Numbered from the stretch's first letter, positions 1 to 9,192 are shown. The stretch is 48,700 bases of DNA from Spirulina sp. (GCA_044070495.1 JBIPSI010000037.1:1-48700); one strand, 5' to 3'. The notes: generated from the letters alone by a model not told the origin. Program-made: numbers and translations.

Positions 1-76
1 CGTACCAATACCGCGCCCCTTTCTCTTCAGGGTCGATCTCAGGGAGGTTCAGGTCTGAGGGGGGCTTACTCGTCAT
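1..76 (-). CDS. 5' end of a probable CDS running off the window (MTSKPPSDLNLPEIDPEEKGARYWY...)
   Basis: ATG at 76 opens a stop-free frame to the window edge; product unknown. Confidence 0.35.
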   Translation of the reverse strand, partial: MTSKPPSDLNLPEIDPEEKGARYWY

Positions 77-141
77 GCCCCTTACTCTAACGATTTTTGT
101 CCCATTCGCAATAGCCCCATCTTGTTGCGGTGACTAATTAC

Positions 142-363
142 TTAGACTTCAAACAGTGATCGGGGTAGCTGCGACTGTCGAATAATAGATTGTAGCGTTC
201 CTATTTTTAAGGCTTTGTGATTGGGGACAGGAACGGTAATGGTTGTCTCTTCTATGCGTTTTTGCATAACAATGTGGCTTCCCCGTTGTTGTACGTTCTG
301 GAATCCATGTTGTTCTAGAAGCTTGCATATTTCGCTTCCCGAAAAGATTCTAAGCTTGCCCAA
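142..363 (-). CDS. hicA: HicA family toxin
   Basis: (M)GKLRIFSGSEICKLLEQHGF..QRGSHIVM..VPVPNH..GTLQSIIRQ is typical HicA; TTG start at 363 overlaps the hicB end. Confidence 0.88.
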   Translation of the reverse strand: MGKLRIFSGSEICKLLEQHGFQNVQQRGSHIVMQKRIEETTITVPVPNHKALKIGTLQSIIRQSQLPRSLFEV

Positions 364-586
364 TGCTAACCTCCAGTCGGGTAATAAAGACTTCGGATTT
401 GAGACGACTGGCAATTTCGGAAGGATCGGCAACTTCAAAGAAAAGCTCGATGGCCTCGATTAGGTTAGTTCTGGCTTCTTCTACGGTATCGCCCTGGCTA
501 GCAATGTCTAGCTCAGGACAGAGGGAAACATAGCCTTCTTCTTCCCGTTCGATAACAGCCGTAAACTGATGTGTTTGTTTAATCAC
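350..586 (-). CDS. hicB: HicB family antitoxin (short form)
   Basis: FTAVIEREEEGYVSLCPELDIASQGDTVEEARTNLIEAIELF; GTG start with AGGAG upstream. Confidence 0.9.
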   Translation of the reverse strand: MIKQTHQFTAVIEREEEGYVSLCPELDIASQGDTVEEARTNLIEAIELFFEVADPSEIASRLKSEVFITRLEVSIGQA

Positions 587-620
587 TGTCTGAACTCCTT
601 ATGATTTGGGTGCATGGTAT

Positions 621-698
621 TTAGTCTTGCTGATGAAGATTTTTTAGATCTTCTTAAAGAATTTGAAGGCTATCAGGTAAATCGATGGTGATTTGCAT
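621..698 (-). pseudogene. Internally deleted UPF0175 antitoxin-like gene remnant
   Basis: First 13 codons MQITIDLPDSLQI match 2073..2330, joined out of frame to a tail EDLKNLHQQD* resembling its FEEDLHN end. Confidence 0.7.
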
Positions 699-701
699 GG
701 T

Positions 702-1112
702 TTAGGCTCCTGTGTCAGGGGGTTGGCTTAGGGTGTCAAGGTAGGTGATGGTTGCTTTTCCCCAGATGCTTTCTTCTAGGTAGTGCTGGGCGATATCGAT
801 GAGGGTAGCTTTGGTGGCTTGGAGGTGACGTTCGGGATTGAGCAGTTGTTGGCGAAGATTGGCCCACTTGGAGGAACTGCTGTGCTGGATTTCGGTGAAT
901 TCTACGTCAATAATTGCAAGGGCTTCGGATTCGGTGGCGACGTTAGGGTGCTGGCTTTGGAGGTGAGTTATCAGCACTTTTAGATCCATGATGGCCGCTT
1001 GAACTGATGGATCGGTGGCGTAGTTATGCTGTGCCTCGATGTAGGTATCGACCTGCTCGAAGATTTGTACTTTTTCGGCTTTGGGAAAGTTGTATTTTGA
1101 GGCTTCTGTCAT
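702..1112 (-). CDS. 136-aa hypothetical protein, copy B; N-terminus resembles the C-terminal motif of the upstream NACHT-HEAT protein
   Basis: Intact ORF; ATG overlaps the parE stop; 14 substitutions versus copy at 2334..2744. Confidence 0.8.
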   Translation of the reverse strand: MTEASKYNFPKAEKVQIFEQVDTYIEAQHNYATDPSVQAAIMDLKVLITHLQSQHPNVATESEALAIIDVEFTEIQHSSSSKWANLRQQLLNPERHLQATKATLIDIAQHYLEESIWGKATITYLDTLSQPPDTGA

Positions 1113-1432
1113 GGGGTTGGTTCTTGGTCAAGGATAAATTCTAGGTTTTGGGCACCGTGAAGGACTCGGATAATTTCTACGGTATCAGGATGAATTTGAT
1201 AGAAGATGATGTACTTGCTGAAGCCTTTGATAGGGTATTGGCGTATTTGAGCCAGCCTTGGAGATGTGAATCCACTGCGTCTACCAATTTCAGGAAGTTT
1301 GGCAATGCGTTGAAAGGTTGCCTCGGCAGCATAGAGAAAGCGATCACCCGCATCAAGGTTATCAAGACTGATGTAGGTAGCATGGGCGATCAGATCTTGA
1401 ATGACGATTGGGCGTTTGGTCAGGTTAGCCAT
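1109..1432 (-). CDS. parE: RelE/ParE family toxin
   Basis: QDLIAHATYISLDNLDAGDRF..P.IGR..KYIIFY..VEIIRVLHGAQNL. Confidence 0.88.
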   Translation of the reverse strand: MANLTKRPIVIQDLIAHATYISLDNLDAGDRFLYAAEATFQRIAKLPEIGRRSGFTSPRLAQIRQYPIKGFSKYIIFYQIHPDTVEIIRVLHGAQNLEFILDQEPTP

Positions 1433-1682
1433 TGTGGGATTGATCGCGTTGGTTTTGATGAACAGCGGCGCGGATGGACTCCCAATCGCTGGTGGTCATT
1501 GGTGTGGGTTCGCCGGAGTTAAGCCCTTCGAGAATGAGGGGTTCAAGATGGTCTTTGCGGGCTTTGTCTTGTTGGATGAGGGCTTGAATGTAGTCGTTGG
1601 CGGTGTTGTATTGGCCGGATGCAAGTTGCTCTTTGAGGTAAGCGGCTAGAGCCTCTGGGAGTGAGATGGTTAGATTAGTCAT
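1425..1682 (-). CDS. parD: ParD/CC2985-type RHH antitoxin
   Basis: LTISLPEALAAYLKEQLASGQY..A.DYIQALI..LEGLNSGEPTPMT; overlaps parE start. Confidence 0.85.
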   Translation of the reverse strand: MTNLTISLPEALAAYLKEQLASGQYNTANDYIQALIQQDKARKDHLEPLILEGLNSGEPTPMTTSDWESIRAAVHQNQRDQSHNG

Positions 1683-1705
1683 GGAGTTACTTGTATGGGT
1701 AAGGA

Positions 1706-1924
1706 CTAGGCAATTTCTCGACTAAAGACTTCGGATTTGAGGCGATTGGAAAATTCGGAAGGATCGGCAACTTCAAAGAAAAGCTCGATGGCCTCGATTA
1801 GGTTAGCCCTTGCTTCTTCTACAGTATCGCCCTGGCTAGCAATGTCTAGCTCAGGACAGAGGGAAACGTAACCTTCTTCTTCTCGTTCGATAACAGCCGT
1901 AAACTGATGGGTTTGTTTAATCAC
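1706..1924 (-). CDS. hicB: Second HicB antitoxin copy with replaced C-terminus and no cognate hicA
   Basis: Near-identical to 350..586 up to KSEVF, then SREIA*; GTG at 1924. Confidence 0.75.
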   Translation of the reverse strand: MIKQTHQFTAVIEREEEGYVSLCPELDIASQGDTVEEARANLIEAIELFFEVADPSEFSNRLKSEVFSREIA

Positions 1925-1958
1925 TGTCTGAACTCCTGACGCTGTAGATAAATAATAC

Positions 1959-2090
1959 TCATGCTCCTTCGCCAAAGGTTAGATCTTCTCTTACCTCATA
2001 GGGAAGTTGTGGTGGACGTTCTAGCGGGTTGCCATCCCAGCTACTAACGACGTTTTCAAAAAAACCAGGATGTCACCCTCGTGATTCGGG
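1959..2090 (-). pseudogene. C-terminal remnant of a further small antitoxin-like gene
   Basis: Reading through the TGA at 2073 gives PESRG*HPGFFENVVSSWDGNPLERPPQLPYEVREDL, resembling from memory the GW.PGFFE..W.G.PLERP.Q..YE.RE.L tail of small antitoxins that precede vapC; its stop overlaps an ATG giving MSIIYL. Confidence 0.55.
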
Positions 2091-2330
2091 GATGTTGTGA
2101 AGTTCAGGACGGATATTATGTAGGTCTTCTTCAAAGTCTGTGACATCGTAATGGATGCAAATACCTCGGCTACCAATAAGCTGCTGAAATTCCATTTGAT
2201 GCATTCCGGCAATCTGGCTGGCTGTGCCTAGGGTGACTCGCTCTTGCTGAAAGAGGGTTATGGCTAGTTCTGTCCGTAGGTCGGCTTCGGTGATTTGAAG
2301 GCTATCGGGTAAGTCGATGGTGATTTGCAT
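2073..2330 (-). CDS. UPF0175 family antitoxin-like protein
   Basis: ITEADLRTELAITLFQQERVTLGTASQIAGMHQMEFQQLIGSRGICIHYDVTDFEEDL. Confidence 0.85.
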   Translation of the reverse strand: MQITIDLPDSLQITEADLRTELAITLFQQERVTLGTASQIAGMHQMEFQQLIGSRGICIHYDVTDFEEDLHNIRPELHNIPESRG

Positions 2331-2333
2331 GGT

Positions 2334-2744
2334 TTAGGCTCCTTTTTCTGGAGGTTGGCTTAAGGTATCAAGGTAGGTGATGGTTGCCTTGCCCCAGATG
2401 CTTTCTTCTAGGTAGTGCTGGGCAATTTCGATGAGAGTAGCTTTGGTGGCTTGGAGGTGGCGTTTGGGATTAATCAGTTGTTGTCGCAGATTGGCCCACT
2501 TGGAGGAACTGCTGTGCTGAACTTCAGTAAATTCTGCGTCAATAATGGCGAGGGCTTCGGATTCGTTAGCGACGGTGGGGTGCTGGCTTTGGAGATGGGT
2601 AATCAACGCTTTTAGATCCATGATGGTTGCTTGCACCGATGGATCGGTGGCGTAGTTATGCTGGGCCTCAATGTAGGTATCGACCTGCTCAAAGATTTGG
2701 ACTTTTTCGGCTTTAGAGAAGTTGTATTTTGAGGTTTTTGTCAT
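2334..2744 (-). CDS. 136-aa hypothetical protein, copy A
   Basis: About 90% aa identical to 702..1112. Confidence 0.8.
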   Translation of the reverse strand: MTKTSKYNFSKAEKVQIFEQVDTYIEAQHNYATDPSVQATIMDLKALITHLQSQHPTVANESEALAIIDAEFTEVQHSSSSKWANLRQQLINPKRHLQATKATLIEIAQHYLEESIWGKATITYLDTLSQPPEKGA

Positions 2745-2746
2745 GG

Positions 2747-3148
2747 CTATATGTCCTGTTTAGGGGGTTCCCAGATGCGATGGATAGTGTAGGCATCCAT
2801 CTGGCTATCCTGGCTGACGAGGGATAGATTATGGTTGATGGATTGGGCAATGAGAATTCTGTCGAAGGGATCACGATGATGTAGGGGCAAGGAGAGATAA
2901 ATCTCTAGGGCTTTGAATGTGATAGGCAGTTGCGTGATGTCAAGGGATGTTAAATTAGGTTCGATGGTGCTAAATGGGGCAGAGAGGTCAAGTTTACCGA
3001 TGTTGGCTTTGATAGCAATTTCCCAGAGGGAGGCAATGCTGACAAAGACGGTGGGCGTGGTCTCAATTTGGGTGCGGGTGCTGGTGGGAAGTTGGGTGTC
3101 GTTGTCGAGAAACCAGATGATGGCGTGGGTATCAAGCAGGAGAGTCAT
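2747..3148 (-). CDS. vapC: VapC (PIN domain) toxin
   Basis: LLLDTHAIIW, SIASLWEIAIK, HHRDPFDRILIAQ motifs. Confidence 0.92.
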   Translation of the reverse strand: MTLLLDTHAIIWFLDNDTQLPTSTRTQIETTPTVFVSIASLWEIAIKANIGKLDLSAPFSTIEPNLTSLDITQLPITFKALEIYLSLPLHHRDPFDRILIAQSINHNLSLVSQDSQMDAYTIHRIWEPPKQDI

Positions 3149-3150
3149 GG

Positions 3151-3375
3151 CTACATGTAGTCTTTGAGATCTTCCAGGGGTGCATCAAAGTCGTCAGCCA
3201 TGGTGAACATGCCTTTCATGGTTCCGGCTTGGCGATATTGCTTAGGCGGTGTTTCAGAGGATAGATTTTTTGCATATTTGGCGGCTAGATATTCAGCGTA
3301 ATGAAGAATTTCTGTTTGCAGATTTGGAGAGAGTTTTTCAAGAGTTTCAATTAACTGACTCGATAACATTAGCAT
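3151..3375 (-). CDS. DUF2281 family antitoxin
   Basis: LEKLSPNLQTEILHYAEYL..RQAGTMKGMFTMADDFDAPLED; directly upstream of vapC. Confidence 0.82.
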   Translation of the reverse strand: MLMLSSQLIETLEKLSPNLQTEILHYAEYLAAKYAKNLSSETPPKQYRQAGTMKGMFTMADDFDAPLEDLKDYM

Positions 3376-3530
3376 TCTCCTTGGAGAGAATTTGAGTTTT
3401 CTTTGCGGGCCTTGTCTTGTTGAATGAGGGTTTGGATATAGTCGTTGGCAGTGTCGTATTGGCCGGATGCAAGTTGCTCTTTGAGGTAAGCGGCTAGAGC
3501 CTCTGGGAGTGAGATGGTTAGATTAGTCAT
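3369..3530 (-). pseudogene. Truncated ParD antitoxin copy (N-terminal RHH part only)
   Basis: First 43 codons nearly identical to 1425..1682, then unrelated ENSNSLQGEC*. Confidence 0.75.
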
Positions 3531-3573
3531 GGAGTTACCTTGATGGAGAAAGCTTGGATGATTGATTGATGGA

Positions 3574-6500
3574 CTATTGATCTGAGTCTGGGGGATGTTC
3601 ATAGTAATGTTCAACCCGCTCAAAGATTTTAACTTCAGGGGCATTAGGGAAAATATAGCTTATCGGTGCAGTTGTTGTTTCTGGAGTCTCTTTAGTCGTA
3701 TTTTGAGCGGTCATTGCTTCTTGCCAGATGCAGTAGTTATAGAACTTGCAGCGATTTTGAATAGTTGGAATCAGCCAAGAAAGCTGTGAAATATAGAATT
3801 TCCTATTTGCATCTATCAACTCAGGGAGTTTATTATTAATGTCCTGGAGAGAGCATTTTGCTAGAACAAGAGCAGCCCGATTTTGAAAATAGATATCCTT
3901 GGTATAGTTTTCTGGATTTATTAGAGCATCAATCAGTCGATTTAGCATTTCCAAATTCATTAATTCAGATAAAAAGTCTATAGTTTCGCTAGAAGACTCA
4001 TGGCCTGGGTCTACTAATGCTTCAAACAGGTTTGCCAAAACCTCCGACCCTACACTCCCTTGATGCTTAGCTAACCTACCTAATTCAATAGCTGCTCTTT
4101 GCCAATATAAGCATTTAGACTGAGTGATCTCAAGTAAAGGTTCTTTAAGGCTAAGTCTCGAAAGACTTTTCATGATTTCAACATGAGGATCAAAATTAGT
4201 AGGTGCTTTTAGTGAATCTAACAGAGTAGGAATAGCTTCTTTTTGATCAAATTTACTTAAGGAGCAAGCCGCGTTTATTCGGACATATCGATCAGAATCC
4301 TTATCAATAACGTTGAGCAAAGAAGGAATACAGTTTGAGTCACCAACAATACCAAGAACTACAGCCGCAGTTGAACGAATGCTTGATTCCTGATGGTTTT
4401 CTAACTCATTCATCATTCTTGGTAGAACTTTAGAGTCCTTCAGATGGCCTAAGACAATAGCTGCGCACCATGATATATGCCAGTTATTATGCTCAGCTAA
4501 ATTCCTCAGTTCTCCAAGATCTTTGGGATTATCTATACTTTTTAGTTTAATCAGTTGCTTAGCTGCTTCTGCCCGAAGATTTCTGCTGTCTTCGCCCAGT
4601 CGTTGGACTAAGAAGTGAATTGCGGTGTCAAATTTACTTGCACCTAAAATTTGAATTATTTGCTTCTGAAGGGTCTCATAAGGCTCCTGAGCAAATAACT
4701 GAATTAATTCCGGAATAAACAACTCATACCTTGAAGAGACTCCCAGAAGATTAAGAATATGGTTTCTTTGTCGAAATTCAGTAGAAGGAAGAGTGATCTT
4801 AGTATTCTTTAGCAGATTTATAATGTCAGCATCTACTTTCTCTTTTAAATCAGTTGAGTCGGGCACCTGGATTTCTCTTTCAGGCTCTTCCCAGTCAGCA
4901 GCTATTTTTCTATTTTCTTCATGTTGAGCATTCCTAAACTCTTCGAGTAGTTCTCGAATCATATTTTCGGCATCTAGCCTCATCAGAATTGGTGCTGCCT
5001 GGGTCATCATTAGTAATAATGTGCCATGCTCTTTTAACTTCTGACGCAAGAACTTAATGGCTAACTGTGGTGAAATATGACTAAGAGATTGAACACAGGT
5101 TGACCATGAAATTCCACTCTTGTCAGAGTCTCCCAATGACTTTTGAGAGAAAAGCTTTTCACTAATTTTACCTAGTCTTCTTGTTATAGTATCTATAGCA
5201 ACTTGATTGCTAGTTTCTCCTATATAAGATGTTGCAATTTCAACGACATCAATATTTTTATGTGTTAAGAATGATAAAAGCTCTGGGATAGCTAATTCTG
5301 ATCGTGTTTCACCCAGAAGCTCAACTTTTAACCTGTCTGTTACAGAAAGCTTGATTACTTCTCCTACAGTTGCTTCTTGAAAAAGAAGTGCCACTTCTCC
5401 AGCCAGCTTTGCTCCTAACCTTAAATCTATATCCATTGCCAGCTTTACCACTCGCAAAGCATGGTCTTTGTTATCCACCAATGCCAGCATCAGGGCAATG
5501 GGTTCTGTCCACTTCAATAGATTTAGGTAGTCACGCTTAAATTGAGCCTCATCCTCAAGTAACTCAGACAATTCCAGCTTCAGCAGCAGTGCTTCGGCGG
5601 CGTAGTATTCCTGGAAAAGCTGGTGGTGAAATTCAATTTCCCTAGGGTCTGTGGCAACTTGTAGCAGATGGTGTTCGAGCAGATCCTCCAGCCATTCCTT
5701 GGCTCGTTGTCCTGGGGCTTCTACCCGACCTGTTAAATAGGTTTCTAAAAGTCTTTCGGCTTGGCTACGATCTATCGTTAGCCAAGCTTCGGTGGGGCTG
5801 GTTGGGTCGCCCTGCAACATGCAAAAGGCAAGGTGTTGCAATAGCTCCGGCTTAAACCGCCGAAAGTCGTCAGAAACAGCCACTAGCCCCTTAAACTGGT
5901 CATACTTGGCATCAAATAGGCGAAACAGTTCACCCTTGCTCTGGGGAATTTGCCCAGTTGTACTGTCAAAGACATCACAGAGCATTTTGAGCAGCAGTGG
6001 GGTTTCAGCCACCTCTCGCAGGCGGTCTTTGAGCTGCCGCAGCAACGTATCAGCCTGGTTAGGCAATCCTCGCTGGGTCAGGTATTTGTTCACAAACTCC
6101 CGCATTTGGGGTTCGCTCAGGGGGCGCATTTCCAACCGCTTTTGGATGCCCAGGTCTCCACCCACCGCCAGATCTCGCGTGGTGAAGATCATCGGTGTGG
6201 TCGGGTTGTCTTCTCGAAAGGCTTGGAGCTTGCGCCGCTGCTGATCCGAAGGAATTTCGTTGACCCCATCGAGCAGTAACAGTAATCGGTCTTCCAGCAA
6301 CCAATCTTCCAGTTGCTCCGCACTAATCCGCACCTTCGCCCGCCGAAATTCTGCCAAGATTAGCTCAATAACGGGACGATCACCCTTAAGCTGCACATAC
6401 ACCGGAATGATCTCAGGTTGTTCCAGGGCGACTTCTGCCGCCTCCAATAGCAACCGCTTTAGCGTGGTAGATTTTCCTGAACCCGGTCGTCCTGCCAGCA

Positions 6501-6972
6501 AAAGATGTTGACGCTTTTCGCCCAGGGCATGTTTCTGTAACCCTTCCAAGACCGGAAAGCGCTCTACCTTTTGCTGAGTTATTTCAGGTGAGCGAGAAGC
6601 ATCTTCTGATGCTCGCCGCTCCACCGTTTCTGCCTCCAGCAGAATCAATACGTCAGTCTCGGTATAGAGGTCACGCACATCCTGATATCGGGAATCTTGG
6701 CGGAGGATAAATTCTAGGTACCCGGAAAAATCAAACGTAGGGGGGAAGCTGCCATTCTTCAATTTGTCCAAGTAATCCTGAATGGCGCTGAGTCCTGGCC
6801 CAATATAGCTATCGGCCCACTCCAGCAGGGCGCTAACCTGTTCGCCAACTTTGGCTGAGGTTCCGGCTCGGTTCATCCGGGGCATCGCCACAGCAATCAG
6901 TAGCCGCTCAAAGTCTGCTTGCGGCAGGCGGCTTAAATCATCAAATAGCCGAGCACGATCACCGGAATCCAT
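3574..6972 (-). CDS. NACHT (STAND) NTPase with small N-terminal helical domain and C-terminal HEAT repeats (NLR-like)
   Basis: Walker A GRPGSGKST, Walker B LLLLDGVNE, FTTR, TPLLL, FHHQLFQEYYAA; HEAT-like units (RSTAAVVLG, RINAACSLS); IQNRCKFYNY tail motif. Confidence 0.9.
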   Translation of the reverse strand: MDSGDRARLFDDLSRLPQADFERLLIAVAMPRMNRAGTSAKVGEQVSALLEWADSYIGPGLSAIQDYLDKLKNGSFPPTFDFSGYLEFILRQDSRYQDVRDLYTETDVLILLEAETVERRASEDASRSPEITQQKVERFPVLEGLQKHALGEKRQHLLLAGRPGSGKSTTLKRLLLEAAEVALEQPEIIPVYVQLKGDRPVIELILAEFRRAKVRISAEQLEDWLLEDRLLLLLDGVNEIPSDQQRRKLQAFREDNPTTPMIFTTRDLAVGGDLGIQKRLEMRPLSEPQMREFVNKYLTQRGLPNQADTLLRQLKDRLREVAETPLLLKMLCDVFDSTTGQIPQSKGELFRLFDAKYDQFKGLVAVSDDFRRFKPELLQHLAFCMLQGDPTSPTEAWLTIDRSQAERLLETYLTGRVEAPGQRAKEWLEDLLEHHLLQVATDPREIEFHHQLFQEYYAAEALLLKLELSELLEDEAQFKRDYLNLLKWTEPIALMLALVDNKDHALRVVKLAMDIDLRLGAKLAGEVALLFQEATVGEVIKLSVTDRLKVELLGETRSELAIPELLSFLTHKNIDVVEIATSYIGETSNQVAIDTITRRLGKISEKLFSQKSLGDSDKSGISWSTCVQSLSHISPQLAIKFLRQKLKEHGTLLLMMTQAAPILMRLDAENMIRELLEEFRNAQHEENRKIAADWEEPEREIQVPDSTDLKEKVDADIINLLKNTKITLPSTEFRQRNHILNLLGVSSRYELFIPELIQLFAQEPYETLQKQIIQILGASKFDTAIHFLVQRLGEDSRNLRAEAAKQLIKLKSIDNPKDLGELRNLAEHNNWHISWCAAIVLGHLKDSKVLPRMMNELENHQESSIRSTAAVVLGIVGDSNCIPSLLNVIDKDSDRYVRINAACSLSKFDQKEAIPTLLDSLKAPTNFDPHVEIMKSLSRLSLKEPLLEITQSKCLYWQRAAIELGRLAKHQGSVGSEVLANLFEALVDPGHESSSETIDFLSELMNLEMLNRLIDALINPENYTKDIYFQNRAALVLAKCSLQDINNKLPELIDANRKFYISQLSWLIPTIQNRCKFYNYCIWQEAMTAQNTTKETPETTTAPISYIFPNAPEVKIFERVEHYYEHPPDSDQ

Positions 6973-7092
6973 ACCAGATGCAGCGGGCGCGAGAAAATCG
7001 TAGACCTATCGCTATGGTAGCCGCAGTTCCCAAGAGATCCCAATGGCAAGGCAAGCAGCCCGACTTTTTCAAGAAACCGGGCGGCTGAGGGG

Positions 7093-9192
7093 TTAGGCGT
7101 TGATGCGTCCCGCCATCGGAGAACTGGGGCTGGCGGTAGTTTGGATGGGGATGCGTCCGGCGTGGTAGGCCAGTCGTCCGGCCTGGGTGGCGAGGCCCAT
7201 GGCGCGACCCATGGCCACGGGGTTTTGGGCCTTGGCGATGGCGGTGTTAATCAGCAGGGCATCGGCCCCCATTTCCATGGCCAGGGCGGCTTCGCTGGGG
7301 GTGCCAATCCCGGCATCCACCACCACGGGCACCTTGGCATTTTCGATGATGATTTGGATATTGGCGGCGTTGCGGATGCCCTGGCCAGAGCCAATCGGAG
7401 AACCGAGGGGCATCACCGTGGCGCAGCCCGCTTCCTCTAGGCGTTTGGCCAGCAGGGGGTCGGCGTTGATGTAGGGCAGCACCGCAAAGCCTTCCTTCAC
7501 CAACTGTTCCGCCGCCTCTAGGGTGCCGATGGGGTCGGGCAGCAGGTATTTGGCGTCGGGGATCACCTCTAGTTTGACGAAGTTGTTGTCTTCCTGGCCC
7601 AGCAGTTTGGCCATTTCTCGGCCCAGCCGCGCCACTCGGATGGCCTCTTCGGCGGTTTGGCATCCGGCGGTGTTGGGCAGCATCCAAATCTTCGACCAGT
7701 CCAGGGCTTCGGCGAGACCTTCGTGTCCAGGGGCATTGGTCTGCACCCGCCGCACCGCTACGGTGACAATCTCGCAACCGCTGGCGGCAATGCTCTGGCG
7801 CATGGTTTCAAAGTCGTCGTACTTGCCCGATCCGGTCATTAGGCGGGAGGCGAAGGAGCGTCCGGCGATGACCAGGGGATTGTCGGCGGGGATAGCGGCG
7901 GCGGCGGATTCGAGGGGAGTGGCGGTTAGGGTCATGGTGGGTTGGGATAGGGAGTCGGGAGTCGGGAGTGGGGAGTCGGGAATCGGGTAGGGGCGGGGTT
8001 TCCCCGTTCCCAAAACGTCGGGAGTCGGGTAGGGGCGGGGTTTCCCCGTTCCCAAAGCGTCAGGATTTGGGGGGCCGTTAAAACGCTGATAGGAGAAGGG
8101 GGGGAGGAGATCGGGGGTGCGTCCGGCGAGGTATTCGGCAATCAGGTGGGCGGTGATGGGGGCGAGGAGGATGCCGTTGCGGTAGTGTCCGGTGGCGAGG
8201 GTGAGGTTGGCGGCGGGGCCGGGGCCGAGCAGGGGCATTTCGTCCGGGGTGGCGGGTCGGTAGCCCCACCAGGTTTGTTCGAGGGTGCAGTCGGCCAGCC
8301 AGGGCAGTAGGGCGATGGCGTTGGCCAAGAGCTGGTTGACTCCGGCGGCGGTGTTGCCGGGGGCAAAGCCGACTTCCTGGCTGGTGGCCCCCAACACGAT
8401 GCGGCCATCCTGGCGGGGCACGATGTAGATGTTTTCGCCAAACAGCACCCGTTGCAGGGGTTGCACGGTGCCCAGGGCTGGGGGCACTCGCAAACTGGCC
8501 ATTTCGCCCTTTTTAGGGAAGACGGGCACAGGCAGCAGGTCGTAGCTCCAGGCTCCGGCGGCGAGGACGATGTGATCGGCCTGGAAGTCGCCAGCCTGGG
8601 CGGTGCAGACGCGCTCGATGCGGCCTTGGGATTGCCGCAATGCGGTGGCCCCAACCCCTTCGTGAATCGTCACCCCCAGATCGAGAACCGCAGCACGCAG
8701 GGCTTTCACGAGGGCTTGGTTATTCACTTGGCCATCTTCGGGATACCAAAAGGCACCTTGCACCCCAGCGCCTAGTCCGGGCTGGTAGTGGGCGAGGGCT
8801 GCGGCGGTTAACCATTGCCCTTGGGCAGTGTCCTGGGACACCTGATTCCCCTGGGATCGCTGATCCGTGAAATCAGATAAATCAGGCTCTTGGAAACGCG
8901 GAGCCAAAATGCCGCTGGGCCAATAGCCGACGGATTGCCCGGTGAGGGCTTCAATTTTCGCCACCCAGTCGGGATAGCGTTCCAAGCTGGCCAAGCACAG
9001 ATCCAGCATGGGGCCAAGGGGAATACCCTCGGCACGGGGGGCCAACATTCCGGCGGCGGCATGGCTGGCGGCGGCGGCAAAATCGCGGCTGAGGATGGCC
9101 ACGCTAGCCCCCTGCTGGCGCAGTTCTAGGGCAATGGCCAACCCCATCATGCCCCCGCCCACCACGAGGATGTCCTGTCCCGCCTGTGTCAT
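7093..9192 (-). CDS. thiG: Fused glycine oxidase ThiO / thiazole synthase ThiG (ThiG part from about 7935)
   Basis: [11 protein letters not shown] motif, [20 protein letters not shown]; then [27 protein letters not shown]. Confidence 0.93.
7950..8061. repeat. Heptamer STRR-like run (GGGAGTC) plus two REP-like direct repeats with 42-bp period in the thiO-thiG linker
   Basis: gggagtc/gggagtg/gggaatc from 7950; tcgggtaggggcggggtttccccgttcccaaa(a/g)cgtc at 7983 and 8025. Confidence 0.85.

What the first reader, a model, noticed from the sequence alone, without database searches (positions are those of the whole stretch)
702..3670. Two free-standing genes continue the NACHT protein's own C-terminal motif
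Seen: the NACHT-HEAT protein ends SYIFPNAPEVKIFERVEHYYE and stops eight residues later. Both 136-aa ORFs begin KYNF(P/S)KAEKVQIFEQVDTYIE, the same Y.F..A..V.IFE.V..Y.E pattern, and continue into an approximately 110-aa helical domain. Inference: these may be detached C-terminal domains of the NLR-like protein. Alternatively the shared motif may be a homotypic (beta-strand or amyloid-like) coupling element linking receptor to a separately encoded effector, analogous to fungal and bacterial NLR amyloid-motif pairs. Either reading links an NLR-like sensor to a TA array.
Basis: partly seen in the sequence, partly recalled or inferred. Interest (0 to 1): 0.8.

Follow-up and report, generated by a model that had tools for sequence, protein, structure and literature searches.

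The report
Split NLR receptor with paired tags
A cyanobacterial immune-receptor-like gene has lost its last domain to separate small genes, both halves keep the same short peptide tag, and toxin-antitoxin pairs sit in between, a layout that recurs in many cyanobacteria and may show a new way of wiring such receptors to a partner.

Summary
The NACHT-HEAT protein (3574..6972, minus strand) ends in a 20-residue motif that matches residues 7-26 of two 136-aa ORFs: 11/20 identical, pairwise E 4e-4.

The 136-aa protein belongs to a cyanobacterial family with no Pfam model: 272 near-length hits and 226 clusters at 50% identity. The same motif plus helical domain forms the extreme C-terminus of 53 of 54 longer homologues, mostly NACHT-HEAT proteins. 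The ORFs are therefore detached C-terminal domains.

The split layout recurs.
- 34 of 41 free-standing loci with enough upstream DNA have a NACHT/HEAT gene upstream.
- In 29 of 39 loci that gene ends in the same motif class as the downstream gene begins with.
- 31 of 40 gaps hold a type II TA pair from at least 6 families.
- The receptor-side motif is under purifying selection, dN/dS about 0.14 with synonymous sites mostly saturated.

Best reading: a gene fission in which the duplicated motif acts as a homotypic coupling peptide. Binding is not shown.

TA pairs also follow the fused genes, so they are probably passengers. The topology is the reverse of known amyloid-signalling pairs. I rate it a new variant of a known kind.

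The parts
3574..6972 (-). NLR-like receptor, 1132 aa. It has an N-terminal helical region with no Pfam model, then NACHT (residues 157-299), then HEAT repeats, then a variable linker, then the motif and a 7-residue tail.
   Evidence: ORF; Pfam NACHT 2.2e-11 and HEAT_2 1.3e-29; N-terminal 140 aa without a Pfam hit.
3598..3657 (-). Receptor-side copy of the class-A motif (residues 1106-1125). The tail and stop codon are at 3574-3597.
   Evidence: Conserved in 10 other class-A receptors with dN/dS about 0.14.
3369..3530 (-). Truncated ParD-like antitoxin, 53 aa, with no cognate toxin.
   Evidence: 93% DNA repeat of 1552-1698 (family D3); start codon read; no Pfam hit for the longer ORF 3369..3644.
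3151..3375 (-). DUF2281 antitoxin-like gene.
   Evidence: Pfam DUF2281 3.4e-24.
2747..3148 (-). PIN-domain (VapC-like) toxin.
   Evidence: Pfam PIN 1.6e-15.
2334..2744 (-). Free-standing motif plus helical C-terminal domain, copy B, 136 aa. The motif is at nt 2667-2726. The start lies 2 nt after the PIN stop.
2073..2330 (-). UPF0175 antitoxin-like gene.
   Evidence: Pfam UPF0175 3.3e-22.
1706..1975 (-). HicB-like antitoxin copy without a HicA partner.
   Evidence: 94% DNA repeat of 385-599 (family D2); weak HicB_lk and UPF0150 hits.
1425..1682 (-). ParD-like antitoxin.
   Evidence: Pfam ParD_antitoxin 0.0018, below the curated cut-off; position directly upstream of ParE.
1109..1432 (-). ParE toxin. 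Its stop codon overlaps the start of copy A as ATGA.
   Evidence: Pfam ParE_toxin 1e-13; coordinates.
702..1112 (-). Free-standing motif plus helical C-terminal domain, copy A, 136 aa. The motif is at nt 1035-1094.
350..586 (-). HicB-like antitoxin.
   Evidence: Weak HicB_lk and UPF0150 hits; sits next to HicA.
142..438 (-). HicA toxin.
   Evidence: Pfam HicA_toxin 1e-17.

Best explanation
The locus is a two-part NLR system produced by gene fission. In the ancestral or alternative all-in-one form, one protein reads NACHT - HEAT - short motif - helical C-terminal domain (CTD) of about 100 aa. In this window the receptor stops just after the motif, and the motif plus CTD is encoded separately, twice.

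I propose that the duplicated peptide of about 20-30 residues is a homotypic docking or templating element, forming either a beta-strand pairing or an amyloid-like stack. It is disordered in the monomer. When the receptor senses its trigger through the HEAT repeats and oligomerises through NACHT, the clustered C-terminal tags recruit free CTD molecules by tag-tag contact. This rebuilds the fused architecture in trans and concentrates the CTD, whose own output is unknown. The CTD behaves like an assembly or adaptor module, because it is also found after EAD1, EAD8, Roc-COR, Band_7, pentapeptide and FGE-sulfatase domains.

The TA pairs between the two halves are most likely passengers of a TA-prone 3' block. 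They are co-transcribed and turn over by cassette replacement.

Shown: family membership, fused forms, recurrent synteny, class-level matching of the tags, and purifying selection on the receptor-side tag.

Inferred: physical tag-tag binding, recruitment on activation, and the passenger status of the TA pairs.
For: 1. Fused forms exist. 54 longer homologues were found, and in 53 the match ends within 6 residues of the C-terminus. 23 carry NACHT, 12 HEAT only, 8 Roc/COR/LRR and 2 EAD8. Of 70 long representatives, 16 have NACHT, 20 HEAT only, 5 COR, 3 EAD1 and 1 each Band_7, FGE-sulfatase, Pentapeptide and DUF4926. 22 have no family.

2. The synteny recurs. Of 79 genome loci, 57 are free-standing. 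41 of those have at least 1500 nt of upstream DNA, and 34 of the 41 have a same-strand NACHT/HEAT gene ending within 3.5 kb.

3. The tags match in cis. The upstream protein ends in the same motif class as the downstream gene begins with. The cognate mean Smith-Waterman score is 51.4 against 29.2 for non-cognate pairs, 0 of 10000 permutations reach the observed mean, and 29 of 39 pairs exceed the 99th percentile of shuffled tails. At least 5 distinct classes are matched.

4. Non-NLR proteins carry matched tails too: a trypsin-like protease (L023) and a pentapeptide-repeat protein (L064).

5. The receptor-side motif is conserved as protein, not as DNA. NG86 gives mean dN 0.137 and mean dS 0.983 on the 21 usable of 55 pairs; in the others dS is saturated. 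The linker just upstream of the motif is variable.

6. There is no sign of recent gene conversion between the cis copies, because dS is mostly saturated.

7. The motif region has pLDDT below 50 in both AF2 runs while the helices are modelled. A flexible terminal tag would look like this.

8. TA pairs are not specific to the split. They also directly follow fused NLR-CTD genes in 6 of 12 fused loci scanned, and they lie downstream of free CTDs in 12 of 21 loci given to the scan.
Against: Within class A there is no fine-scale covariation between cognate tags. Observed identity is 10.00 of 18 positions against 10.03 for non-cognate pairs, and 6803 of 10000 permutations reach the observed value.

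HEAT region, tail, TA pair and CTD behave as one linkage block. NACHT modules that are 71-78% identical are joined to HEAT and tail regions only about 30-40% identical, and each tail class is matched in cis. Class-level matching could therefore reflect common descent and linkage, not selection for pairing.

10 of 39 loci show no tail match. Some of these are mis-picked upstream ORFs or splits inside the HEAT region. One is a real exception: L013 is NACHT-HEAT-TIR_2 with no tag but is followed by ParDE-CTD.

The class-A motif in this window lacks the G/N/Q-rich signature of described amyloid signalling motifs.

The CTD fold and function remain unknown.
Confidence: 0.55

Rival explanations
1. 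The receptor-side motif is a historical by-product of the rearrangement that split the gene. It is kept for a receptor-intrinsic reason, for example as a cap on the last HEAT repeat. The free CTD acts independently of the receptor and there is no tag-tag coupling.
For: There is no within-class covariation. Cis matching can be explained by linkage of the HEAT-tail-TA-CTD block. L013 shows a ParDE-CTD unit behind an NLR with no tag. Free CTD genes also occur without a detectable NLR upstream, in 7 of 41 loci.
Against: The same tag classes sit at the C-termini of unrelated upstream proteins, a trypsin-like protease and a pentapeptide protein, directly before a matched CTD. The tag follows a variable linker rather than packing directly after the repeats. 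In fused proteins the tag always lies at the CTD boundary.
Confidence: 0.2
2. The motif-coding DNA is a recombination handle. Units of [TA + motif-CTD] are mobile cassettes that enter the 3' ends of NLR genes by recombination at the junction, as orphan C-terminal cassettes do in polymorphic toxin (CDI/Rhs) loci. On this view the downstream copies are spare C-termini.
For: The window holds two tandem units with homologous ends (ParD 93%, HicB 94%, CTD 90%) but different inner TA cassettes. At least 6 TA families occupy the same position in different genomes. L013 has ParDE-CTD behind a different NLR C-terminus.
Against: Synonymous sites in the motif are saturated, both between genomes and between cis copies, so there is no DNA-level conservation to serve as a handle. 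The longest identical run in the window pair is about 12 nt. The two CTD copies are 90% identical, not diversified. Free CTD genes have their own start codons and are conserved at about 134-136 aa in 272 clusters. No inverted repeats were found around the cassettes. No contig joined the receptor tag to a CTD tag in the 4 runs laid, although coverage was fragmentary.
Confidence: 0.1
3. The TA pairs are functional parts of the system. Receptor activation or CTD assembly frees the co-transcribed toxin, which serves as the executioner. The split exists to place the TA pair inside the operon.
For: 31 of 40 gaps hold a TA-family gene. The toxin stop overlaps the CTD start as ATGA in the window and in 8 other loci. 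No minus-strand terminator-like site was found in the array. In L008 a DUF5615/PIN_10 toxin ORF ends in the class-A tag.
Against: At least six unrelated TA families occupy the site, so a specific protein contact is unlikely. Split loci without a TA pair exist (L009, L064). TA pairs are about as common downstream of fused genes and of free CTDs. The window carries decayed TA fragments (truncated ParD, lone HicB), which is typical of cassette turnover.
Confidence: 0.1

Closest known systems
NLR-associated amyloid signalling motif pairs: fungal HET-S/NWD2 and bacterial BASS1-11, including Bell/NLR and Bab/Agp. Sources: Dyrka et al. 2020 bioRxiv 10.1101/2020.01.06.895854, passages read; Ibarlosa et al. 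2024 bioRxiv 10.1101/2024.11.07.622273, abstract and section 4 read.
   Same: A short motif of about 20-25 residues is duplicated between a STAND/NLR-type sensor and a small protein encoded nearby. All-in-one fused versions exist for the same domains. Several unrelated motif classes are used. The systems are enriched in filamentous cyanobacteria. Some classes here contain G-(D/N)-Q-(I/V)-G, which recalls the G-phi-Q-phi-G core those papers describe for BASS3, RHIM and PP.
   Different: The topology is reversed. Here the tag is at the receptor's C-terminus, after the sensor repeats, and at the partner's N-terminus. The papers place the motifs at sensor N-termini and effector C-termini. The partner domain is not Bell/HeLo-like and has no Pfam match. 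A TA pair is usually interposed. The window's own class-A tag is not G/N/Q-rich. Fibril or prion behaviour is untested.
Effector-associated domains (EADs) as homotypic coupling adaptors. Source: Kaur et al. 2020 eLife, PMC7159879, passages read.
   Same: The logic is the same. The same module appears on the core NTPase and on a stand-alone partner, and direct fusions occur elsewhere. The CTD family is itself found fused to EAD1 and EAD8, and a relative of the receptor carries EAD10 at its N-terminus.
   Different: EADs are globular domains; the Pfam models that matched here are 77-96 positions long. Here the duplicated element is a peptide of 20-30 residues that AF2 leaves unstructured, and it sits at the receptor's C-terminus.
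Orphan C-terminal cassettes of polymorphic toxin loci (CdiA-CT, Rhs-CT). This comparison is recalled knowledge; no paper was read.
   Same: A conserved junction motif precedes a separable C-terminal domain. Extra copies that begin at the junction lie downstream, interleaved with small protective genes.
   Different: The copies here are not diversified (90% identical) and have their own start codons. The junction is conserved as protein, not as DNA. The interleaved genes are complete TA pairs rather than immunity genes.

Membership tests
NLR / STAND NTPase of the NACHT clade (the receptor) | NACHT P-loop NTPase domain followed by C-terminal superstructure-forming repeats | tested here: met
   Pfam NACHT 2.2e-11 (44.3 bits, cut-off 26.7) at residues 157-299; HEAT_2 1.3e-29.
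CTD family (motif plus helical domain; no Pfam or NCBIfam model) | Full-length similarity to the family of about 135 aa, including conserved core positions such as the invariant N92, P93, R95 and H96 of alignment A1 | tested here: met
   272 hits with E <= 1e-3; alignment A1 invariant columns; 226 clusters at 50% identity; 0 Pfam families for either copy and only a sub-threshold NCBIfam hit.
Bacterial amyloid signalling sequence (BASS) pairs | Motif at the N-terminus of the NLR and at the C-terminus of the adjacent effector | tested here: not met
   Here the motif is at the receptor C-terminus (residues 1106-1125 of 1132) and at partner residues 7-26. The papers state N-terminus of the sensor and C-terminus of the effector.
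Bacterial amyloid signalling sequence (BASS) pairs | The same motif on both partners encoded in one neighbourhood, with all-in-one fused counterparts | tested here: met
   29 of 39 cognate pairs are significant; fused forms.
Bacterial amyloid signalling sequence (BASS) pairs | The motif forms amyloid fibrils or prion-like foci, and the sensor-side motif templates the effector-side motif | not testable with these tools
   No amyloid predictor or assay was available. AF2 leaves residues 1-32 below pLDDT 50.
Bacterial amyloid signalling sequence (BASS) pairs | Sequence membership in BASS1-11, or a RHIM-like G-phi-Q-phi-G core | tested here: inconclusive
   No RHIM or HET-s Pfam hit for the 136-aa proteins, and none among the 25 families listed. 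Classes seen in other loci carry G-(D/N)-Q-(I/V)-G, but the window's class A does not. The motif tables of Dyrka et al. are in supplements that I could not read.
TCAD2 (PF19971), a lead from the ESM Atlas | Match to the Pfam TCAD2 model | tested here: not met
   Atlas score only 0.86-0.90. PF19971 found in 0 of 201 cyanobacterial genomes, including the window's own genome, which holds 3 CTD copies. The search also rang in none of the 14 control genomes.
Type II toxin-antitoxin pairs (the interposed genes) | Adjacent small antitoxin and toxin genes with family matches | tested here: met
   ParE 1e-13, PIN 1.6e-15, HicA 1e-17, DUF2281 3.4e-24 and UPF0175 3.3e-22. ParD is only 0.0018, below the cut-off. 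Activity was not tested.

The most novel reading that the evidence does not exclude
The tags are a new, reversed-polarity class of NLR signalling motif. On activation, the receptor's C-terminal tags template prion-like or beta-stack polymerisation of a free, previously undescribed helical output domain. The TA toxins embedded between the two genes have been co-opted as executioners, released when the operon's products are sequestered. A conserved internal Met in fused genes would let even all-in-one receptors make free CTD for the same polymer.
Probability: 0.15. Interest if true: 0.85.

Novelty: new variant of a known kind. Interest (0 to 1): 0.68.

Why it matters
Two-component NLR signalling through short paired motifs is known only in one polarity, with the motif at the sensor's N-terminus and the effector's C-terminus. 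This locus and about 30 related ones suggest the same logic can operate from the receptor's C-terminus, after the sensor repeats, onto an uncharacterised domain family present in about 6% of sampled cyanobacterial genomes (24 of 401).

The locus offers a natural, compact test set for asking whether a 20-residue peptide can rewire a split receptor. It supplies fused and split forms, at least 5 tag classes, and non-NLR carriers of the tag.

It also documents a very consistent hot spot for type II TA cassettes at the 3' end of NLR genes. That bears on how TA modules spread through defence loci.

Tried and rejected
- **Complex prediction.** I submitted the receptor tail (60 aa, alignment A2) with the CTD (alignment A1). 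The result was no verdict, score 0.00, and the controls were not run. This is not evidence for or against binding.
- **AF2 structure of the CTD.** Two runs with alignments of 28 and 67 rows gave mean pLDDT 55.6 and 57.3. That is too low for fold assignment.
- **Structure and sequence searches for the CTD.** Foldseek against the PDB gave no match with E <= 1e-3. A PDB sequence profile search gave only E about 0.9.
- **Pfam at a loose threshold.** Scanning all 28 A1 members at E <= 5 gave only coiled-coil-type noise.
- **ESM Atlas.** It returned the family's own unnamed cyanobacterial clusters and a weak TCAD2 lead. The lead was rejected by the PF19971 genome search.
- **Sequencing runs.** No run held half of the stretch. 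The 4 runs laid gave only short contigs. No joint linked the receptor tag to a CTD tag. One contig of a relative skipped 2817-3170. Pieces in an RNA library come from relatives and do not show transcription.
- **Inverted repeats.** None were found around the cassettes, so nothing resembles an integron attC site.
- **Within-class covariation of tags.** None was found.
- **Mantel test, NACHT against CTD distances.** r = 0.136, with 499 of 5000 permutations at or above the observed value. A first version based on local alignments was unreliable and was replaced.
- **Earlier findings of this scan.** Three look-ups returned nothing.


Full report
**Observation**

On the minus strand the window carries a 1132-aa ORF at 3574..6972. 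Pfam finds NACHT at residues 157-299 and HEAT repeats. The protein ends with a 20-residue motif at residues 1106-1125, then 7 residues and a TAG stop.

Two 136-aa ORFs lie at 702..1112 and 2334..2744. They are 122/136 identical and carry the same motif pattern at residues 7-26. BLASTP aligns the motif copies with 11/20 identities and E 4e-4 for that one comparison. The coding DNA is 76% identical over 41 nt. A pattern scan of the whole 5.3-Mb assembly finds this motif class only at these three places, and the assembly holds only one NLR of this kind.

**Gene order**

Reading the minus strand 5' to 3', the genes are:

1. NLR
2. truncated ParD-like gene (53 aa)
3. DUF2281 and PIN
4. CTD copy B
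5. UPF0175
6. a lone HicB copy
7. ParD-like and ParE
8. CTD copy A
9. HicB and HicA

Genes are tightly packed. ParE and CTD-A overlap as ATGA. No minus-strand terminator-like site was found, though that scan is weak evidence.

Two tandem units share homologous ends: ParD 93%, CTD 90%, HicB 94%. They differ in their inner TA cassettes.

The first 7 kb has 39-54% G+C against about 58% for the rest of the window. This fits an acquired island.

**What the 136-aa protein is**

It has no Pfam family and only a sub-threshold NCBIfam hit. A near-length search finds 272 relatives with E <= 1e-3 among 281 candidates. Almost all are 131-141 aa, and those that are named come from cyanobacteria.

A search among longer proteins finds 54 relatives among 1262 candidates. 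In 53 of them the match ends within 6 residues of the C-terminus. The remaining one, P0174, matches only up to query residue 51. By precomputed Pfam the 54 break down as follows:

| Architecture | Count of 54 |
|---|---|
| NACHT (mostly with HEAT) | 23 |
| HEAT only (many on short contigs) | 12 |
| Roc/COR/LRR | 8 |
| EAD8 | 2 |
| no domain | 9 |

An exhaustive profile search gives 226 clusters at 50% identity with E <= 1e-3. Of 70 long representatives scanned, the counts are:

| Architecture | Count of 70 |
|---|---|
| NACHT | 16 |
| HEAT only | 20 |
| COR | 5 |
| EAD1 (one also with trypsin) | 3 |
| Band_7, FGE-sulfatase, Pentapeptide, DUF4926 | 1 each |
| no family | 22 |

The ORFs are therefore free-standing versions of a promiscuous C-terminal module of conflict-system proteins.

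The family is patchy. It occurs in 24 of 401 sampled cyanobacterial genomes and 17 of 156 genera, and in neither of the 2 sampled genomes of the window's own family.

**The motif is a separable, variable head on a conserved helical body**

Alignments show a conserved helical core preceded by a head of 20-30 residues. The head comes in several unrelated classes. One class resembles the window's. Others are G/N/Q-rich and contain G-(D/N)-Q-(I/V)-G.

AF2 models five helices over residues 35-128 at low confidence and leaves residues 1-32 below pLDDT 50 in both runs.

**The split layout recurs**

A scan of one genome per species returned 79 loci. In 22 the domain is the end of a long frame, and in 57 it is free-standing.

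Of the 41 free-standing loci with at least 1500 nt upstream, 34 have a same-strand NACHT/HEAT gene ending within 3.5 kb.

The upstream protein typically ends with a copy of the same motif class as the downstream gene begins with, followed by a short tail that aligns with the linker of the CTD. Among 39 loci with both segments:

- the cognate mean Smith-Waterman score is 51.4 against 29.2 for non-cognate pairs;
- 0 of 10000 permutations reach the observed mean;
- 29 of 39 cognate pairs exceed the 99th percentile of shuffled tails.

The 10 misses include mis-picked upstream ORFs, loci split inside the HEAT region, and L013. L013's NLR ends in a TIR_2 domain and has no tag.

Matched tails also occur on a trypsin-like protease (L023) and a pentapeptide-repeat protein (L064).

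**TA pairs**

The gap between receptor and CTD gene is usually 600-800 nt. In 31 of 40 gaps scanned it holds genes of TA families:

| TA family in the gap | Loci |
|---|---|
| ParE (with ParD-like) | 9 |
| DUF2281-PIN | 4 |
| RelE PF06296 | 13 |
| UPF0175-DUF3368 | 3 |
| UPF0175 alone | 1 |
| HicA | 1 |

L008 additionally has DUF433-DUF5615. Split loci without a TA pair exist (L009, L064).

A control shows the TA pairs are not tied to the split. They also lie directly downstream of fused NLR-CTD genes in 6 of the 12 fused loci whose downstream ORFs were scanned, out of 16 fused loci with enough downstream DNA. They lie downstream of free CTD genes in 12 of the 21 loci given to the scan. For that second group I gave only 34 of the 73 candidate ORFs, dropping mostly minus-strand ones. 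The TA association is therefore with the 3' end of these loci in general.

**Is the receptor-side tag functional?**

Across 11 class-A receptors, the 18 motif codons give mean dN 0.137 and mean dS 0.983 on the 21 usable of 55 pairs. In the remaining pairs dS is saturated. The linker just upstream of the motif is not conserved. The tag is therefore kept as protein, not as DNA. This argues against a decaying remnant and against a DNA recombination handle.

Cis copies are 44-67% identical in protein and mostly saturated at synonymous sites, so there has been no recent gene conversion.

**Results that limit the coupling claim**

- Within class A, cognate tags are no more alike than non-cognate ones (10.00 against 10.03 of 18 positions; 6803 of 10000 permutations reach the observed value).
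- NACHT and CTD distances correlate poorly (Mantel r 0.136; 499 of 5000).
- NACHT modules that are 71-78% identical (L005/L056, L004/L041, L025/L057) carry different HEAT regions and different tail classes, each matched in cis. Identity drops at the NOD/HEAT boundary.

HEAT region, tail, TA pair and CTD therefore travel as one block. Class-level matching may come from linkage. It is still what a functional unit would look like, but it is not independent proof.

**Mechanism**

I commit to the following at confidence 0.55. This is a gene fission in which the duplicated head peptide lets the detached CTD dock on, or be templated by, the receptor's C-terminus. Receptor oligomerisation clusters the tags and concentrates the CTD.

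The CTD's own output is unknown. Its occurrence as the only other domain after EAD1 suggests an assembly or adaptor role or an effector role.

The TA pairs are probably passengers in a TA-prone block. A functional role for them is a minority reading (0.1).

**Comparison with known systems**

The closest known systems are the amyloid signalling motif pairs of fungi and bacteria. In those the motif sits at the sensor's N-terminus and the effector's C-terminus. Here the polarity is reversed, the partner domain is new, and amyloid behaviour is untested, so I do not file it as a BASS member.

The EAD homotypic-adaptor logic is the same in principle. EADs, however, are globular domains.

Four full-text searches found no description of a C-terminal receptor tag paired with an N-terminal partner tag, or of TA pairs nested between NLR halves. 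The text of Dyrka et al. contains neither 'toxin-antitoxin' nor 'HEAT'. The supplements with the BASS motif tables could not be read, so overlap of some tag classes with BASS7-10 cannot be excluded.

**Verdict**

I rate this a new variant of a known kind, with interest 0.68.

Noticed in passing
L003 (G000:C41) about 520-920: A third CTD copy in the same genome follows a PIN-like gene. It has a different head motif and an in-frame TAG where the other copies have Gln, so it is probably a pseudogene. The contig starts just upstream, so any receptor there is unseen.
   Followed up: partly
Fused homologues P0121-P0312 (no window coordinates): In 97 of 110 fused proteins a Met lies 28-50 residues before the helical domain, at the position where free-standing genes start. 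Background Met frequency is 1.4%. This suggests either an internal start site or frequent fission and fusion.
   Followed up: partly
L008:7926-8615: A 229-aa ORF with a DUF5615/PIN_10 toxin domain has a C-terminal extension that ends in the class-A tag plus tail. It is either a toxin carrying the receptor-type tag or a relic fusion.
   Followed up: partly
L013:2166-5905: A NACHT-HEAT-TIR_2 receptor without a tag is followed by ParD/ParE and a tagged CTD gene. The ParDE-CTD unit can therefore sit behind a different receptor C-terminus.
   Followed up: partly
L041:8426-10330: The receptor tail belongs to a further tag class (a D-L-R-G-A type head). It is matched by the head of a 141-aa protein with no Pfam family, encoded right after an UPF0175 gene. 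A CTD gene with another tag class lies further downstream, so there may be a second kind of tagged partner.
   Followed up: no
window 6775-6966 and L083:1957-3843 (G000:C5): Residues 3-66 of the receptor are 53% identical to the N-terminus of a 628-aa STAND protein elsewhere in the genome. By reading its sequence, not by a domain scan, that protein looks like an NB-ARC/TPR type. The shared N-terminal helical module has no Pfam match, while a relative of the receptor carries EAD10 at that position.
   Followed up: partly
L005/L056, L004/L041, L025/L057: The receptors are mosaics. NOD modules are 71-78% identical but are joined to HEAT regions only about 30-40% identical, with the break at the NOD/HEAT boundary.
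   Followed up: partly
window 1-7000: G+C is 39-54% here against about 58% in the rest of the window. The flanking thiO-thiG-like fusion gene (7093..9192) is also next to the receptor in L005, so the island sits at a conserved site in at least one relative.
   Followed up: no
window 7093-9192: The 699-aa ORF upstream of the receptor has an internal tandem duplication of about 14 residues, a proline-rich stretch, between its two halves.
   Followed up: no
L060:10441-11011: XisH and XisI genes lie directly downstream of a CTD gene. L043 has an MNT/HepT pair in the same position.
   Followed up: no
L054:9818-10339 and P0291: Some CTD proteins carry two different heads in tandem. In L054 these are two distinct G/N-rich classes. 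In P0291 a receptor-type head is directly followed by a Met and a CTD-type head. This looks like read-through re-fusion of split genes.
   Followed up: no
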